From positions 24,454-88,453 of the IMG/VR virus record IMGVR_UViG_3300017773_000002: a stretch of 64,000 bases of DNA. One strand, given 5' to 3'. Below, piece after piece: positions 2,900-25,028 of the stretch. Origin of the DNA: a virus. The first letter of the stretch is position 1. Each line of letters opens with the position of its first letter. The position numbers were made by a program, and so were the translations under genes. The notes under the pieces are model-generated. The model searched no databases. It saw nothing but the letters and a program-made list of their open reading frames with translations, and was not told where the DNA came from.

Positions 2900-2934
2900 A
2901 TGATTATAAATTAAATTTTACAGGATATTTTAAA

Positions 2935-4002
2935 ATGGCTTATAATTTTTTTCCAAAAAACGGAGTTGAGCTTTCTGAGGGCATAAAAAATCTTAGTGGT
3001 AAGGAACAATCTGAAATTACTACATTGTTTCACTATCTTAAGGAGACCACTGGAATGGAGTCTCCAATCAATATAGATAAAAATAAACCTAGAAATGTTA
3101 ATGTTTCTCGTGCTATTGATGGTACTATAACTTTACAACAAATAAAAAGAAACGCAAAATTAGATAAAATAAAAATTAAATTCGGAAATGGTAGTTCGGG
3201 AAATCGTGGAGTAAACAACCGAGGAAATCTCTTTGAACCTCAGTTTGCTGATGCTATATTAAAATGGTGGGAAGGTGATACTACAGGTATTAACAAAGAA
3301 ATGTTAGATGCTATTGAGGATATCGATAATACATATAATCTTCGAGGAAGTTCTACATTAAAAATTGATGTTGTTGGTGGGGAAAATACCAAAAGGCCTT
3401 TAAAATTCTCTCCAACTATATTGTTGACTAACACTAAGGGTACTGGTAATGATATAGGAAAATCTGTTACTGATATTACATTGCACACAGACTCCGAAAA
3501 AATATACCTTTCTCTTAAACTAGGTACAACTACCACCTTTTTCAATGTTGGGGTTAGAAAAATTTTAACTCCTACCGAAATAAAGAATAATAATATAACA
3601 AATGTTAATGGTCTGAAATTATTAAAAACCTTTGGGATAGATTCCGATATATTTTGTTCGGTATTTAATCAAACTTTTGATGGGAGAAATTTTCAGAGAA
3701 AAATTATTAAATATGACAATAATGCTGTAAAAAAACTTTTAGAAAGTGGTGTCGGTTACGGTTATCATATCATTCATAAGATGCGTGGAAAGATATTATC
3801 TAAACAGATGAATAAAAAATCTATGCAGATAGCATCCAAACCGCAATCTCTAACAGTATTTTATGGTGGAAAAACTGGTCGAGGCAGAAGAGTTGACATG
3901 GTATTAGAAACTCCAACCTACACCATGAAACTTAATATAAGAGACACTCAGGGTGGTGATGGTTATCCTACGCGAATGATGTGCGATTTTACTTATAAGT
4001 AA
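2935..4002 (+). CDS. Putative PD-(D/E)XK-fold nuclease-like protein
   Basis: GNLFE...TDITL...YLSLK pattern. Confidence 0.5.
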   Translation: MAYNFFPKNGVELSEGIKNLSGKEQSEITTLFHYLKETTGMESPINIDKNKPRNVNVSRAIDGTITLQQIKRNAKLDKIKIKFGNGSSGNRGVNNRGNLFEPQFADAILKWWEGDTTGINKEMLDAIEDIDNTYNLRGSSTLKIDVVGGENTKRPLKFSPTILLTNTKGTGNDIGKSVTDITLHTDSEKIYLSLKLGTTTTFFNVGVRKILTPTEIKNNNITNVNGLKLLKTFGIDSDIFCSVFNQTFDGRNFQRKIIKYDNNAVKKLLESGVGYGYHIIHKMRGKILSKQMNKKSMQIASKPQSLTVFYGGKTGRGRRVDMVLETPTYTMKLNIRDTQGGDGYPTRMMCDFTYK

Positions 4003-21203: not shown

Positions 21204-22069
21204 TGAAAATTGCTTTACTTATAAATGGAAATTTTCATCCATATTTAAGACGAGAAATACTTAAAGAAAATTTAAGTTCTCTTCAAAAAATATTTTCCGG
21301 TTGTGATATATTTTATCAAACTTGGGATAGTGATGAAGATCGACATATATTTAAGGATATAAGGAATATTGTTGATATAAAGTGGGTACCTAAACCTCCT
21401 TTAGCTACTTACGATCCTTATCTTAAGGCTGTAGAAAATCTTCCTAAAAAAGATTTTTCCGGAATTAATAGAATAAAGAACTCTTCAGAGTCCGGAAAAC
21501 TTATGAGAGCTCACGGTTGTTTCCAACACATATCTCTATTGGAACAGTTCAATTCTATTCCTAAAGATTATGATTTTTATATAAGAACTAGGTGGGATGC
21601 TTATTTTAATAATGAATTTCCTCTTTCCGATATTTTAGAATTAGCTAAAGATAATGTCATAGGGATAGCTACTATACCTAATCATAGTAGTGTTTTAGGA
21701 AAAACGGTTCGTAATCAAAATGATAATTACCTTCGAGTTAGGTCTAGAAGAGAATCCGTAAAAAAACAGGTAGATGGGGGCATCTATTGTATCATAGATG
21801 AAGTCGGATCTAATAATGATTATTCTCCATGCAAATGGAACAACTACCTAAAAGATTTTTGTATAGTATTTAAAAAGGATGACATAATAGATTTTGACAT
21901 AATGGATCACTATGTGAAAGAAAATTTGTATGGAGCTGAATATGGTTGGCATCAAATTCTATGTAGAAAAAGAAAACATATTAATATAGATGGACTTGTT
22001 TCAATATATAGAAATATAGATACGAGTAAAAGGAGTTATGATAGATTAAATAGAGCTAATATGTTATGA
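21203..22069 (+). CDS. Putative glycosyltransferase-like protein
   Basis: KIALLING...DIFYQTW...YDFYIRTRWD pattern. Confidence 0.5.
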   Translation: MKIALLINGNFHPYLRREILKENLSSLQKIFSGCDIFYQTWDSDEDRHIFKDIRNIVDIKWVPKPPLATYDPYLKAVENLPKKDFSGINRIKNSSESGKLMRAHGCFQHISLLEQFNSIPKDYDFYIRTRWDAYFNNEFPLSDILELAKDNVIGIATIPNHSSVLGKTVRNQNDNYLRVRSRRESVKKQVDGGIYCIIDEVGSNNDYSPCKWNNYLKDFCIVFKKDDIIDFDIMDHYVKENLYGAEYGWHQILCRKRKHINIDGLVSIYRNIDTSKRSYDRLNRANML

Positions 22070-23424
22070 ATCGTCCTATAAAATTAATTCTTTTTGATTT
22101 AGATGGAGTATTAGTAGATGCTAAAAGTATACATTATAAGGCTTTAAACAAAGCTTTAGGTGAAAAATATTCTATAACCGAAAGGGAACACCTTTCAATT
22201 TATGATGGATTAAAAACTATACAAAAATTAAATATGTTAACAGAACGTAAAGGTTTAGATCCAAAACTACATCCACAAATAAGTGAAAATAAACAAAAAC
22301 TCACTAGAGAAATGTTATCCGAACAAAAACCAATAGAAGAAATATGTGAGTTATTTTTAGAGTTAGAAAAACTCGGATATAAAATTGGAGTATGTTCAAA
22401 TTCAATAAGAAGGACGGTTTTAACTTCACTTTCACAAGCAAAAATAATACAACATTGTTCAGTAATTCTTTCCAATGAAGATGTCAAAAATGCTAAGCCT
22501 CACCCAGAGATATATTGGAAGGCTATGTCTATGATGGGGGTTTTGCCGGAAGAAACTGTAATCGTTGAAGATAGTCCAGCTGGATTACTATCTGCACAAA
22601 GATCTCGCGCTAATTATATACGAGTGGACAATCCTTATAATACAAATATAAATAATATAATCCCAAAAATTGAGGGTGCACCTATGATAAAAAAGTGGAA
22701 AAATGATAAATTGAATGTTCTTATACCAATGGCTGGAGCTGGTAGTCGTTTCAAAGAGGCGGGTTACACTTTTCCTAAACCACTGATAGATGTAAATGGT
22801 AAACCTATGATCCAGAATGTTGTTGAAAATCTGGGATTAGATGCTAATTATATATTTGTAGTACAAAAAGAACACAGAGAATATTATAACCTAGATACTA
22901 TGTTAGGACTAATATCCCCAAAATGCAAAATTATTGAGGTGGATAAGATGACTGAGGGAGCGGCATGTACCGCACTTTTAGCAAAAGAATATATAAACAA
23001 TGAAAATCCACTATTCTTTGCCAATTCTGATCAGTATGTTGAATGGGAAGTTATGGAGTTTATGTATTCAATGAACGAAAAGAATGCTGACGGTGGTATT
23101 GTCACATTTGAGGCTACTCATCCAAAATGGTCTTTTGCCAAAATAGATAATTTTGGTCTTGTAACAGAAGTTGCGGAAAAAAATCCTATAAGTAATCTTG
23201 CTACAGTCGGTTATTACTATTGGAAGAGTGGTAGTGATTTTGTTAAATATGCTGAACAAATGATAGAAAAAAATATTAGAGTAAATAATGAGTTTTATGT
23301 GTGTCCAGTTTTTAATCAGGCGATCGAAGATTGTAAAAAAATATATACACATAATGCTTCCAAAATGTGGGGATTGGGAACCCCAGAAGATTTGAAATAT
23401 TTTTTAGAAAATTATAAAAAATAA
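22066..23424 (+). CDS. HAD phosphatase fused to sugar-phosphate nucleotidyltransferase
   Basis: DLDGVL, KPHP, EDS; then IPMAGAGSRF...PKPLI, NSDQ, EK, GTPED. Confidence 0.85.
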   Translation: MNRPIKLILFDLDGVLVDAKSIHYKALNKALGEKYSITEREHLSIYDGLKTIQKLNMLTERKGLDPKLHPQISENKQKLTREMLSEQKPIEEICELFLELEKLGYKIGVCSNSIRRTVLTSLSQAKIIQHCSVILSNEDVKNAKPHPEIYWKAMSMMGVLPEETVIVEDSPAGLLSAQRSRANYIRVDNPYNTNINNIIPKIEGAPMIKKWKNDKLNVLIPMAGAGSRFKEAGYTFPKPLIDVNGKPMIQNVVENLGLDANYIFVVQKEHREYYNLDTMLGLISPKCKIIEVDKMTEGAACTALLAKEYINNENPLFFANSDQYVEWEVMEFMYSMNEKNADGGIVTFEATHPKWSFAKIDNFGLVTEVAEKNPISNLATVGYYYWKSGSDFVKYAEQMIEKNIRVNNEFYVCPVFNQAIEDCKKIYTHNASKMWGLGTPEDLKYFLENYKK

Positions 23425-23427
23425 TAT

Positions 23428-23456
23428 TTGACAAATATTTTTTATTGTGTTATAAT
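23428..23456 (+). promoter_or_regulatory. Early promoter of the tRNA cluster
   Basis: TTGACA-17-TATAAT. Confidence 0.85.
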
Positions 23457-23468
23457 ACACGAATTAAT

Positions 23469-23544
23469 GCTCGGATAGCTCAGTTGGTAGAGCAGCTGAC
23501 TTGTAATCAGCAGGTCGCAGGTTCGACTCCTGTTCCGAGCTCCA
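23469..23544 (+). tRNA. tRNA-Thr(UGU)
   Basis: Cloverleaf, anticodon TGT, TTCGA, encoded CCA. Confidence 0.95.
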
Positions 23545-23548
23545 TTTT

Positions 23549-23624
23549 GGGGGTATAGCTCAGCTGGGAGAGCGTCGCCCTTGCACGGCGAAGGTCTGCG
23601 GTTCGATCCCGCATACCTCCACCA
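23549..23624 (+). tRNA. tRNA-Ala(UGC)
   Basis: Cloverleaf, G3:U70, anticodon TGC, CCA. Confidence 0.95.
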
Positions 23625-23628
23625 AACG

Positions 23629-23801
23629 AGTCCTATGATTGAGGACTAGTAGTTATTTGTTTCTCCTATGATGAGAATGGGATTAATCATCCCAAATAGA
23701 AACACGACACCAAGTAGGTCGGTAGCTGGTACCGTTAGTCAGAAGGCTTGGAGACTATGCACGTGCAACGTATAAGGTCAAAGAAGAGTTTTGTGTCACC
23801 A
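23629..23801 (+). ncRNA. Putative structured ncRNA(s) with tRNA-like CCA end
   Basis: Several hairpins; GACAC/GTGTC-A-CCA acceptor-like stem; no ORF. Confidence 0.55.
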
Positions 23802-23812
23802 GACAAATTTAT

Positions 23813-23888
<76 letters not shown>

Positions 23889-23895
23889 TTAACTA

Positions 23896-23972
23896 GGACT
23901 GGTAGTTCAGTTGGTTAGAATGCCGGCCTGTCACGCCGGAGGTCGCGAGTTCGAGTCTCGTCCAGTCCGCCA
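23896..23972 (+). tRNA. tRNA-Asp(GUC)
   Basis: Cloverleaf, anticodon GTC, CCA. Confidence 0.95.
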
Positions 23973-23987
23973 ATATAGGAAAACATC

Positions 23988-24104
23988 ATGGACCCTATAA
24001 ATATTTGGGAATCACTCAGTTACCTAGACGGAATACTCTTCTCTGTTTGGTTGGGAATTTTGTACTATGGTAAATGTTGGATTGATAACAAGTTTAAAGA
24101 TTAA
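23988..24104 (+). CDS. 38-aa single-TM peptide (not in ORF track)
   Basis: AGGA RBS; MDPINIWESLSYLDGILFSVWLGILYYGKCWIDNKFKD. Confidence 0.6.
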   Translation: MDPINIWESLSYLDGILFSVWLGILYYGKCWIDNKFKD

Positions 24105-24113
24105 TCTAATCGG

Positions 24114-24197
24114 GGGGGGATTCCCGAGCGGCCAAAGGGATCAGACTGTAAATCTGACGCGAAAGCTTCGGTGGTTCGAATCCACCTCCCCCCACCA
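24114..24197 (+). tRNA. tRNA-Tyr(GUA)
   Basis: Class II cloverleaf, anticodon GTA, CCA. Confidence 0.95.
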
Positions 24198-24207
24198 TAA
24201 AATTTTC

Positions 24208-24298
24208 GGAGAGGTGGCAGAGCGGTTGAATGCACCAGTCTTGAAAACTGGCATACGTTAATAACGTATCGTGGGTTCAAATCCCACCCTCTCCGCCA
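24208..24298 (+). tRNA. tRNA-Ser(UGA)
   Basis: Long variable arm, anticodon TGA, CCA. Confidence 0.95.
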
Positions 24299-24336
24299 CC
24301 TTTCTCATAAAAAAACTTCATTTAATTTCAAGAAAC

Positions 24337-24393
24337 GCTTGACAAACCTTGTTGGCTGTTGTATAATGGTTACATAAATTGATAAAGAGAGAG
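24337..24393 (+). promoter_or_regulatory. Early promoter and leader cassette (family A)
   Basis: TTGACA-17-TATAAT-GGTTACATAAATTGATAAAGAGAGAG; 57-bp exact inverted copy at 56229-56285. Confidence 0.9.
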
Positions 24394-24399
24394 TATGTT

Positions 24400-24753
24400 A
24401 TGGGAATTCATGTTAGTGTTTACAAACAAGTTCCGTATGGAAACAGTTTTTTAGATAATGTCGACTGCACCGCTGGTGGTGAGTCTTCATATAGTAAGGG
24501 TTTTACTATAGTTAATGCAGAGGGTCCTTTCGAACCGTGTTCAGATTACCCAGCTGCGGAATTAATTATGGAAGAACCTATCGGTGGTCGTAAGTGTCTT
24601 AGAGTTGTTCCCTCATCGAAGAAGGATAAATGGACAATGTTCGGTGGTAACTATGCCGCAACATCTGACTCACGATTTTCTCAACTTTGTGACCGATTGA
24701 TTGGTGGTCACTTCTATGGTGCTGTTGCTGTCTTTGACCGAGTGGAGTTTTAA
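24400..24753 (+). CDS. Early conserved hypothetical protein
   Basis: DCTAGG...MFGGNYAATSDSRF..AVFDRVE. Confidence 0.65.
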   Translation: MGIHVSVYKQVPYGNSFLDNVDCTAGGESSYSKGFTIVNAEGPFEPCSDYPAAELIMEEPIGGRKCLRVVPSSKKDKWTMFGGNYAATSDSRFSQLCDRLIGGHFYGAVAVFDRVEF

Positions 24754-24754
24754 T

Positions 24755-24991
24755 ATGACTTTTGATGAAGCCTGTCACTATTTGTGGCGAGAAGAGTTGA
24801 CCGATTGGGGTGAGTACAAAGTCCCCAATCACGTGTATATAACTAAGGGTACGGACCTTGTGGGTTATGTTCCTTATGGTACAAAGGATGTTAAAATATT
24901 TAATTCTCCTATGAAGTCTTGGAGTGCAAGTAGACGAAAGTTTCGCAAGTTTAACAAGAAAGATATTAAATATTATTTTGAAAATAAGTAA
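24755..24991 (+). CDS. Hypothetical protein
   Basis: GGAG RBS; ELTDW...PNHVY...RRKF. Confidence 0.6.
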   Translation: MTFDEACHYLWREELTDWGEYKVPNHVYITKGTDLVGYVPYGTKDVKIFNSPMKSWSASRRKFRKFNKKDIKYYFENK

Positions 24992-24999
24992 TAAATGTG

Positions 25000-25028
25000 T
25001 TGACAAAGTGTGTAAAATATTGTATAAT
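25000..25028 (+). promoter_or_regulatory. Early promoter (family B-like leader)
   Basis: TTGACA-17-TATAAT then TGTATTGAT..GAGAGAG. Confidence 0.85.

What the first reader, a model, noticed from the sequence alone, without database searches (positions are those of the whole stretch)
23706..23801. Non-canonical tRNA-like RNA with CCA end inside the tRNA operon
Seen, in 96 nt: acceptor-like GACAC/GTGTC plus discriminator A and CCA; a D-like arm CGGTA-GCTGG-TACCG with the GG; an anticodon-position stem TAGTC/GACTA closing a 12-nt loop; a variable-arm hairpin ACGT-GCA-ACGT; and only a degenerate T-loop (GGTCAAA). Established: T4 encodes stable species 1/2 RNAs of unknown function in its tRNA cluster. 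Inference: a tRNA mimic processed by tRNA machinery but unable to decode, for example a decoy for anticodon nucleases or synthetases.
Basis: partly seen in the sequence, partly recalled or inferred. Interest (0 to 1): 0.7.

Follow-up and report, generated by a model that had tools for sequence, protein, structure and literature searches.

The report
Folded RNA gene among phage tRNAs
The flagged 96 bases are the back half of a roughly 185-base folded, non-coding RNA that a small group of marine T4-like phages keeps inside its tRNA operon; it is not a tRNA look-alike, matches no catalogued RNA family, and its job is unknown.

Summary
The cloverleaf drawn from them fails comparison: its acceptor, anticodon and variable stems each break in 3-4 of 8 distinct relatives, and the 96 nt fold no better than shuffles (z +0.46).

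The conserved unit is the whole tRNA-Ala/tRNA-Asn spacer, window 23625-23809, on the + strand. It recurs in 11 further IMG/VR contigs and some extra metagenome contigs, in three subgroups, always in a tRNA region. One copy each was found in the two virus records searched.

Comparison supports a different fold. Eight pairs changed on both sides and stayed paired, and 97.5% of cells pair against 36-46% when the partners are slid. The fold has:
- a 5' domain with hairpin P1, helix P2/P2a, a 6-7 bp loop-loop (kissing) pairing and a possible pseudoknot;
- a 3' domain closed by a 12-layer long-range helix, followed by an invariant ACCA and an AU-rich tail.

ARAGORN, Rfam 15 and models built in both directions against T4 rnaD give no match.

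Best reading: a new stable structured RNA excised from the tRNA precursor, like T4 species 1/2 in position only. Its function is unknown, and the decoy idea is untested. The scan found this family before on other DNA (e1-5861839).

The parts
23428..23456 (+). Sigma-70-type promoter (TTGACA-17-TATAAT with TG) 12 nt upstream of tRNA-Thr; likely drives the whole tRNA/RNA operon
   Evidence: 12 of 12 consensus matches; use as a promoter is inferred
23469..23624 (+). tRNA-Thr(UGU) and tRNA-Ala(UGC); the CCA of tRNA-Ala ends at 23624, directly before the RNA
   Evidence: ARAGORN; Rfam tRNA 74.3 and 65.1 bits
23625..23809 (+). The conserved unit: a structured non-coding RNA of about 185 nt (about 207 nt in subgroups 2 and 3)
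   Evidence: Alignments; model R1 scores 194-235 bits in all members; 83% identity to G001 against 65-76% for coding DNA
23626..23650 (+). P1 hairpin (23626-34 with 23642-50); its 7-nt loop is 23635-41
   Evidence: 2 pairs changed on both sides (columns 12:22, 13:21), 96.9% of cells paired
23635..23690 (+). Kissing-loop pairing: P1 loop ATGATTG (23635-41) with P2a loop TAATCAT (23684-90)
   Evidence: 7 pairs, 3 changed on both sides, 2 on one side, 100% of cells paired
23658..23704 (+). P2 helix TGTTTCT/AGAAACA (23658-64 with 23698-704) enclosing hairpin P2a (23678-81 with 23691-94) and the invariant loop GATGAGAA
   Evidence: P2: 1 compensatory pair (41:80), 100% paired. P2a: 2 one-sided changes, 100% paired.
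23665..23718 (+). Candidate pseudoknot CCTAT (23665-69) with GTAGG (23714-18)
   Evidence: 5 pairs, 2 one-sided G-C/G-U changes, 100% paired; weak, with no change on both sides
23720..23734 (+).
   Evidence: Never varies in the stem; the alternative comes from RNAalifold; undecided
23738..23797 (+). Long-range helix GTCAGAAGGCTT (23738-49) with GAGTTTTGTGTC (23786-97). It encloses P5 GACT/GGTC (23753-56 with 23776-79) and a variable apical hairpin that carries a 22-nt insertion in subgroups 2 and 3
   Evidence: 2 compensatory pairs (126:191, 128:189), 90.8% paired. P5: 2 one-sided changes, 100% paired.
23798..23809 (+). Invariant ACCA directly after the long-range helix, then the conserved tail GA(C/T)AAATT. 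The RNase E-like reading of the tail rests on a consensus I recalled
   Evidence: Invariant columns; processing is inferred
23813..23972 (+). tRNA-Asn(GUU) and tRNA-Asp(GUC). The 5' end of tRNA-Asn is the presumed RNase P site that frees the 3' side of the RNA
   Evidence: ARAGORN; the RNase P role is inferred from general tRNA biology

Best explanation
Window 23625-23809 (+) encodes a structured non-coding RNA of about 185 nt that belongs to a new, narrowly distributed family of marine T4-like (Kyanoviridae-like) phages. It is made as part of the tRNA operon transcript from the strong promoter at 23428-56. Inferred: it is cut free by the host's tRNA-processing enzymes, with RNase P acting at the 5' end of the next tRNA, an endonuclease acting in the conserved AU-rich tail, and 3' exonucleases trimming back towards the helix-ACCA end. 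Shown by comparison: it folds into two domains. The 5' domain has hairpin P1 and helix P2/P2a, tied together by a 6-7 bp loop-loop pairing and possibly a second pseudoknot. The 3' domain is closed by a 12-layer long-range helix, with a variable-length apical hairpin, and its 3' strand runs straight into an invariant ACCA. Inferred: it accumulates as a stable RNA and acts in trans through its three-dimensional fold and its long invariant unpaired stretches, most likely by binding a protein or another RNA. It would not act as a decoding or tRNA-shaped molecule. It resembles T4 species 1/2 RNAs in position and presumed processing only.
For: Conservation:
- The unit is kept as a block while its flanks differ. 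It lies between tRNA-Ala and tRNA-Asn in the window type, and after a 143-aa ORF and before tRNA-Asp in L088 and L102. In L083/L084 no tRNA touches it.
- Against G001 it is 83% identical over 123 nt, while 15 coding segments are 65-76% identical.

Structure:
- 51 pairs were scored and 97.5% of 403 cells pair, against 35.7-46.3% with the partners slid.
- 8 pairs changed on both sides: P1 2, kissing loop 3, P2 1, long-range helix 2.
- 0 of 500 shuffles reach the observed covariation score.
- 49 G-U cells would be A-C on the other strand, so the + strand is the RNA.

Non-coding: the 35-aa ORF 23668-23775 is broken by an indel in subgroups 2 and 3.

Not a known family: ARAGORN and Rfam find nothing.

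Transcription context: a 12/12 promoter lies upstream.

Weak hint of expression: contigs with 0-2 other letters from 4 RNA libraries of 3 studies cover parts of it. One contig spans 23559-23816. Depth is 2.5-3.7.
Against: - No mapped ends and no proof of transcription. The RNA-library contigs are shallow, two of the four libraries are oligo-dT, DNA carry-over cannot be excluded, and some contigs bridge the RNA/tRNA-Asn junction, so they come from unprocessed RNA or DNA.
- The 8 distinct sequences fall into only two deep lineages, so each compensatory pair is about one event.
- 4 pairs have non-pairing cells: 8:26 and 13:21 in one sequence each, 119:198 and 127:190 in four each.
- Minimum-free-energy folds of single sequences differ from the comparative model and from each other. 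The 188-nt fold has z -1.42 only.
- Whether the ACCA is free or paired with the CTGGT loop cannot be decided, because both are invariant.
- No function is shown.
Confidence: 0.6

Rival explanations
1. One reading: a 96-nt cloverleaf-like tRNA mimic (23706-23801) with acceptor GACAC/GTGTC, D arm, 12-nt 'anticodon' loop and variable arm, acting as a decoy for anticodon nucleases or synthetases.
For: All the strings exist. ACCA follows a helix and is invariant. The setting in a tRNA operon would give access to tRNA enzymes.
Against: Acceptor pair 87:198 and anticodon-stem pair 117:136 are each unpaired in 4 of 8 sequences. The variable hairpin pairs in 68.8% of cells. Only 1 cell has changes on both sides, and 240 of 500 shuffles do as well. 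GTGTC covaries with 23738-49 instead. GACT pairs with GGTC. There is no T arm and no tRNA-model hit at E<=10. ARAGORN finds nothing down to 80%. The 96 nt give z +0.46. The conserved unit is twice as long.
Confidence: 0.04
2. A cis-acting part of the polycistronic tRNA precursor: a structured spacer that guides or times RNase E/RNase P cleavage, blocks exonucleases or partly terminates transcription, with no life of its own.
For: It is always on the tRNA strand in a tRNA region. It directly abuts the next tRNA in the window type, L088 and L102. P1 plus its T-rich tail is the one terminator-like site in the scan of 22500-25000. The AU-rich tail after ACCA is conserved.
Against: In L083/L084 no tRNA touches it on either side; in L084 the next tRNA starts about 215 nt downstream. 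Five helices, a kissing loop and a 42-nt invariant core are far more than a processing spacer needs. The other spacers of the same operon are 4-11 nt.
Confidence: 0.15
3. An RNA that assembles with copies of itself. The complementary P1 and P2a loops pair between molecules, as in the RNA-only cages and rings of manA, ROOL and GOLLD.
For: Two loops are complementary over 6-7 nt and covary. The manA RNA, which is under 200 nt and is described as frequent in cyanophage leaders, builds pentamers and a 60-mer through intermolecular kissing loops (sections 7-8 of bioRxiv 10.64898/2026.07.01.735769). ROOL and GOLLD cages appear in the abstract listing.
Against: Sequence cannot tell pairing within a molecule from pairing between molecules, and neighbouring hairpins usually kiss within one molecule. 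There is no Rfam similarity to manA, ROOL or GOLLD.
Confidence: 0.12
4. A decayed tRNA gene or pair of genes (pseudogene remnant) drifting in the spacer.
For: The length is about that of two tRNAs. It sits in a tRNA array. It contains a hairpin and a CCA of tRNA flavour.
Against: It has 8 compensatory pairs and is better conserved than coding DNA. Runs of 42 invariant nt are kept between lineages. No tRNA model score appears.
Confidence: 0.03
5. A new self-cleaving ribozyme that helps cut the tRNA precursor.
For: The fold is compact and pseudoknotted, with invariant junction nucleotides. GATGAG...GAAAC recalls the hammerhead core.
Against: No known ribozyme family appears at E<=10. By the recalled hammerhead consensus, the first core position is A here, the second is C in subgroups 2 and 3, and the 'GAA' lies in P2, where column 80 covaries with column 41. 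An RNA-library contig runs uncut through the whole unit.
Confidence: 0.05

Closest known systems
Phage T4 species 1 and species 2 stable RNAs (139 and 119 nt, NC_000866 70908-71171; the record labels them rnaC and rnaD)
   Same: Both are non-tRNA RNAs encoded on the tRNA strand inside the phage tRNA cluster, directly abutting tRNAs, with function unknown. Species 2 also has a 5' hairpin followed by a long-range helix closing near a CACC(A) 3' end.
   Different: No homology is detectable. R1 gives nothing in the T4 cluster or in 6 T4-like rnaD loci at E<=10. R2, built from 7 rnaD sequences, gives nothing in the window or 4 family loci. With filters off there is only a reciprocal, non-significant match of one hairpin each (3.6 bits at E 0.68; 2.4 bits at E 1.2). 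T4 rnaD has no kissing-loop domain, and its CCA is not conserved: the end reads CACAG in JS98 and AlbertHofmann. T4 species 1 has a true T arm; this RNA has none.
manA RNA motif (the Rfam accession RF01745 comes from an earlier scan note, not from a call of mine), and the larger ROOL and GOLLD RNAs
   Same: These are short or ornate structured RNAs associated with phages, with complementary loops that form kissing contacts.
   Different: There is no Rfam match. manA contacts are shown to be intermolecular; here it is unknown. manA is described as a 5'-UTR element, whereas this RNA sits between tRNAs.
YrlA / bacterial Y RNA (Rfam RF02553)
   Same: It is a non-coding RNA with tRNA-like features that some phages carry and that tRNA enzymes process (abstract listing of PMC4201824).
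   Different: The only YrlA match lies on tRNA-Thr/Ala (23489-23608, 21.3 bits against a gathering score of 69). There is no T arm. No Ro60/TROVE gene was found in G000 or G001.
tRNA (Rfam RF00005)
   Same: Same operon and strand, and an ACCA after a helix.
   Different: No cloverleaf, no T or anticodon arm, and no model score.

Membership tests
tRNA (RF00005) | Cloverleaf recognised by ARAGORN or the Rfam covariance model | tested here: not met
   0 calls in 23625-23812. 0 of 8 family members at ARAGORN thresholds of 100, 90 and 80%. At 70% with introns allowed, only inconsistent minus-strand calls in 4 of 8.
tRNA (RF00005) | Acceptor, anticodon and T stems kept by compensatory change | tested here: not met
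   The acceptor and anticodon stems each have a pair broken in 4 of 8 sequences. There is no T stem. 240 of 500 shuffles do as well.
T4 species 2 RNA (rnaD) | Sequence and structure homology to the T4-like rnaD family | tested here: not met
   R1 against T4 and 6 T4-like loci: nothing at E<=10. R2 against the window and 4 family loci: nothing. With filters off, the best matches on the element are 3.6 bits at E 0.68 and 2.4 bits at E 1.2.
T4 species 1/2 RNAs (as a kind) | A non-tRNA gene on the tRNA strand inside the phage tRNA cluster | tested here: met
T4 species 1/2 RNAs (as a kind) | Accumulates as a discrete stable RNA processed from the tRNA precursor | not testable with these tools
   Only shallow contigs from RNA libraries, with no ends.
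YrlA / Y RNA (RF02553) | Match to the Rfam model | tested here: not met
   There is no match on the element. The only match covers the real tRNAs, at 21.3 bits against a gathering score of 69.
YrlA / Y RNA (RF02553) | Partner Ro60 (TROVE) gene in the genome | tested here: not met
   PF05731 matched 0 of 2 records (G000 is 53% complete, G001 88%). The control rang in 2 of 14 known genomes. Incomplete records weaken this result.
manA, ROOL and GOLLD RNAs | Match to the Rfam models | tested here: not met
   No such match at gathering score or at E<=10.
manA, ROOL and GOLLD RNAs | Homo-oligomer held by intermolecular kissing loops | not testable with these tools
   Complementary, covarying loops exist. 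Whether they pair within or between molecules is unknown.
Hammerhead ribozyme | Core CUGANGA ... GAAA with three helices (consensus recalled) | tested here: not met
   No Rfam match. The first core position is A, the second is C in subgroups 2 and 3, and the 'GAA' is inside P2, where 41:80 covaries.

The most novel reading that the evidence does not exclude
The covarying complementary loops of P1 and P2a pair between molecules, so this 185-nt phage RNA builds an RNA-only ring or cage, as shown in 2026 for the phage-associated manA RNA. That would make small self-assembling RNAs a recurring cargo of phage tRNA operons. A second bold reading is also not excluded: the helix-ACCA end is a true acceptor-end mimic that host CCA-adding, 3'-trimming or charging enzymes act on.
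Probability: 0.12. Interest if true: 0.75.

Novelty: new variant of a known kind. Interest (0 to 1): 0.45.

Why it matters
The two stable non-tRNA RNAs in the T4 tRNA cluster were still described as having unknown roles in the 2010 review and the 2022 study I read. This finding shows that unrelated marine T4-like phages independently keep an elaborate, pseudoknotted RNA in the same genomic niche, under stronger constraint than their protein genes. That supports the view that tRNA operons serve phages as launch pads for structured RNAs with functions still to be found. The family is small and well defined, with a testable fold: a kissing loop, a helix-ACCA end and a variable hairpin that tolerates insertions. 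This makes it a practical target for probing, cryo-EM and processing assays. Its distribution is narrow and no host or isolate is known, which limits immediate impact.

Tried and rejected
- **Known families.** Rfam gave only the 6 tRNAs at gathering score over the whole window. At E<=10 it gave nothing on the element in window 23400-24400 or in L088 and L083. The weak tmRNA_permuted (13.6 bits), CLRN1-AS1 and YrlA rows lie on or at tRNAs.
- **Cultured phages.** blastn of the 188 nt against 50,697 phage records gave 13 chance matches of 19-24 nt. The operon query matched tRNAs only.
- **Neighbour-gene route.** 80 loci were fetched with the upstream HAD/nucleotidyltransferase protein. Only 2 of the 80 (L002, L003) hold the element by nhmmer. 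ARAGORN found tRNAs in only 3 of the 80. That script ended with a KeyError after printing every row.
- **Pattern scans.**
  - Viral searches returned the same three subgroups. L113, L114, L115 and L117 were chance coding hits. L116 is a truncated member.
  - Metagenome: 8 of 14 were true by R1 and 6 were chance.
  - Genome contigs: 0 of 4 were true.
- **Related deposited phages.** R1 found nothing in Phage C48C1 or Melnitz-1.
- **Other readings rejected.** T4 homology, a hammerhead reading (by eye), a small ORF and a Ro60 partner.
- **Closing stem.** The TCTGGT/ACCAGA stem seen in the minimum-free-energy folds of L083 and L088 has no counterpart in the window type.
- **RNA libraries.** Depth and missing cover cannot rank expression or show ends, and bins without cover prove nothing.
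- **Papers.** Searches found no description of this RNA. Supplements were not opened.

Full report
**Setting.** The window is part of an 88-kb IMG/VR virus record that is 53% complete, with about 36% G+C. By its ribonucleotide reductase, the nearest deposited relatives are Phage C48C1 (76.6% protein identity) and the OM43 myophage Melnitz (64%), both filed under Kyanoviridae. A perfect sigma-70-type promoter (23428-56, 12 of 12 matches) precedes six tRNAs on the + strand: Thr, Ala, Asn, Asp, Tyr and Ser. Most spacers in this operon are 4-11 nt. The two exceptions are a 188-nt gap between tRNA-Ala and tRNA-Asn (23625-23812), which holds the finding, and a 141-nt gap that holds a 38-aa ORF.

**The observation.** The 96-nt piece is no more stable than shuffled sequence (z +0.46). 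The 188-nt gap is only slightly better (z -1.42).

**Relatives.**
- Pattern scans of IMG/VR found the element in 11 further contigs, one of them truncated.
- A metagenome scan gave 14 hits, of which 8 are true by the covariance model R1 and 6 are chance coding matches.
- A scan of one genome for each of 185,579 prokaryote species gave 4 hits, none true.
- The neighbour-gene route fetched 80 loci, and only 2 of them carry the element.
- Members fall into three subgroups: the window type; subgroup 2 (L083, L084, L102, L110); and subgroup 3 (L088, L103).
- There is one copy in each of the two virus records searched, and none in C48C1 or Melnitz-1.

**The conserved block.** The conserved block is 23625-23809, not 23706-23801. 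It starts right after the CCA of tRNA-Ala and ends in AAATT. Its flanks are free to change. In subgroups 2 and 3 a 143-aa ORF lies upstream. In L088 and L102 tRNA-Asp follows directly. In L083/L084 no tRNA touches it. Against the 145-kb relative G001 the element is 83% identical over 123 nt, while 15 coding segments are 65-76% identical. The only ORF in it (35 aa) is broken by an indel in subgroups 2 and 3.

On 8 distinct sequences the cloverleaf fails.
- The acceptor pair at 87:198 is unpaired in 4 of 8.
- The anticodon-stem pair at 117:136 is unpaired in 4 of 8.
- The variable hairpin pairs in 68.8% of cells.
- Only one cell shows a change on both sides, and 240 of 500 shuffles do as well.
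- The 'D arm' never varies, so it is uninformative.

**A different fold is supported.** This rests on RNAalifold, my own scan of all column pairs and pair counts.
- P1, 23626-34 with 23642-50: two compensatory pairs.
- P2, 23658-64 with 23698-704: one compensatory pair. It encloses hairpin P2a.
- Long-range helix, 23738-49 with 23786-97: two compensatory pairs.
- P5, GACT with GGTC: two one-sided changes that keep pairing. It carries a variable apical hairpin with a 22-nt insertion in subgroups 2 and 3.
- Loop-loop pairing: the whole 7-nt loop of P1 (23635-41) is complementary to the loop of P2a (23684-90). Three pairs changed on both sides, two changed on one side, and none is broken.
- A further pairing, CCTAT with GTAGG, is compatible through two one-sided changes but is weakly supported.

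Overall 97.5% of 403 cells pair, against 35.7-46.3% when the partners are slid. Eight pairs have changes on both sides, and 0 of 500 shuffles reach the observed covariation score.

**Caveats on the fold.**
- The sequences form only two deep lineages.
- Four pairs have unpaired cells.
- Single-sequence minimum-free-energy folds disagree with the model and with each other.
- The 49 G-U cells fix the + strand as the RNA strand.

**The 3' end.** The 3' strand of the long-range helix runs straight into an invariant ACCA (23798-801), followed by the conserved tail GA(C/T)AAATT. RNAalifold instead pairs ACCAG with the CTGGT of the invariant hairpin loop. Both segments are invariant, so this stays open. 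From general knowledge of tRNA maturation (recalled, not tested here), RNase P at the next tRNA, an AU-rich endonuclease site and 3' trimming would release an RNA ending near ACCA.

**Comparison with known RNAs.**
- T4 carries species 1 and species 2 RNAs at the same kind of place. Their roles were called unknown in 2010 and 2022 (passages read).
- Models in both directions find no homology. With filters off, only a reciprocal, non-significant match of one hairpin remains.
- The CCA of T4-like rnaD is not conserved.
- YrlA, manA, ROOL, GOLLD and ribozyme models give nothing. No Ro60 gene is present in the two records searched.
- A 2026 preprint shows that the phage-associated manA RNA, under 200 nt, forms cages through intermolecular kissing loops (outline, section 7 and passages read). 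This keeps an assembly role open for the covarying loops here.

**Expression.** Four RNA libraries from three studies hold shallow contigs with 0-2 other letters on parts of the element. One 258-nt contig spans 23559-23816. This is only a hint, because DNA carry-over is possible and ends cannot be read.

**Verdict.** This is a real, selected, structured RNA gene of a new and narrow family. The tRNA-mimic and decoy idea has no support so far. An earlier follow-up in this scan reached the same overall reading on another genome (e1-5861839).

Noticed in passing
window 23988-24104 (+): A 38-aa hydrophobic ORF (MDPINIWESLSYLDGILFSVWLGILYYGKCWIDNKFKD) sits inside the tRNA operon between tRNA-Asp and tRNA-Tyr. 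It is kept at 95-100% identity in 10 loci from other window-type contigs (some overlap one contig) and is absent from subgroups 2 and 3. It has no Pfam match.
   Followed up: partly
window 23469-24298: The six phage tRNAs are Thr(UGU), Ala(UGC), Ser(UGA) plus Asn(GUU), Asp(GUC), Tyr(GUA). From memory, the last three belong to the queuosine (GUN) family that some anticodon nucleases target. Whether the set answers a host defence was not examined.
   Followed up: no
L092 (T4 NC_000866) 3146-3172 and 2909-3047, minus strand: The invariant loop and 3' stem of the T4 species 2 hairpin (CGCUAC) is complementary to GUAGCG, which occurs twice in the neighbouring species 1 RNA. A possible contact between the two T4 RNAs; seen by eye only.
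   Followed up: no
L088 539-970 and 1275-1544: In subgroup 3 the tRNA region also holds a 143-aa ORF directly upstream of the RNA and an 89-aa ORF after tRNA-Asp. By eye they look like DUF3310 and GroES/Cpn10 respectively. These names are from memory; no family search was run.
   Followed up: no
window 22066-23424 (+): The gene upstream of the operon is a fusion of a HAD-type hydrolase and a sugar-nucleotidyltransferase domain. It is widespread: 239 relatives in IMG/VR. It is not linked to the RNA: only 2 of the 80 loci kept carry it.
   Followed up: partly
window 24339-24367 (+): A second perfect TTGACA-17-TATAAT promoter lies right after the tRNA operon, ahead of a 124-aa ORF without a Pfam match.
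   Followed up: no
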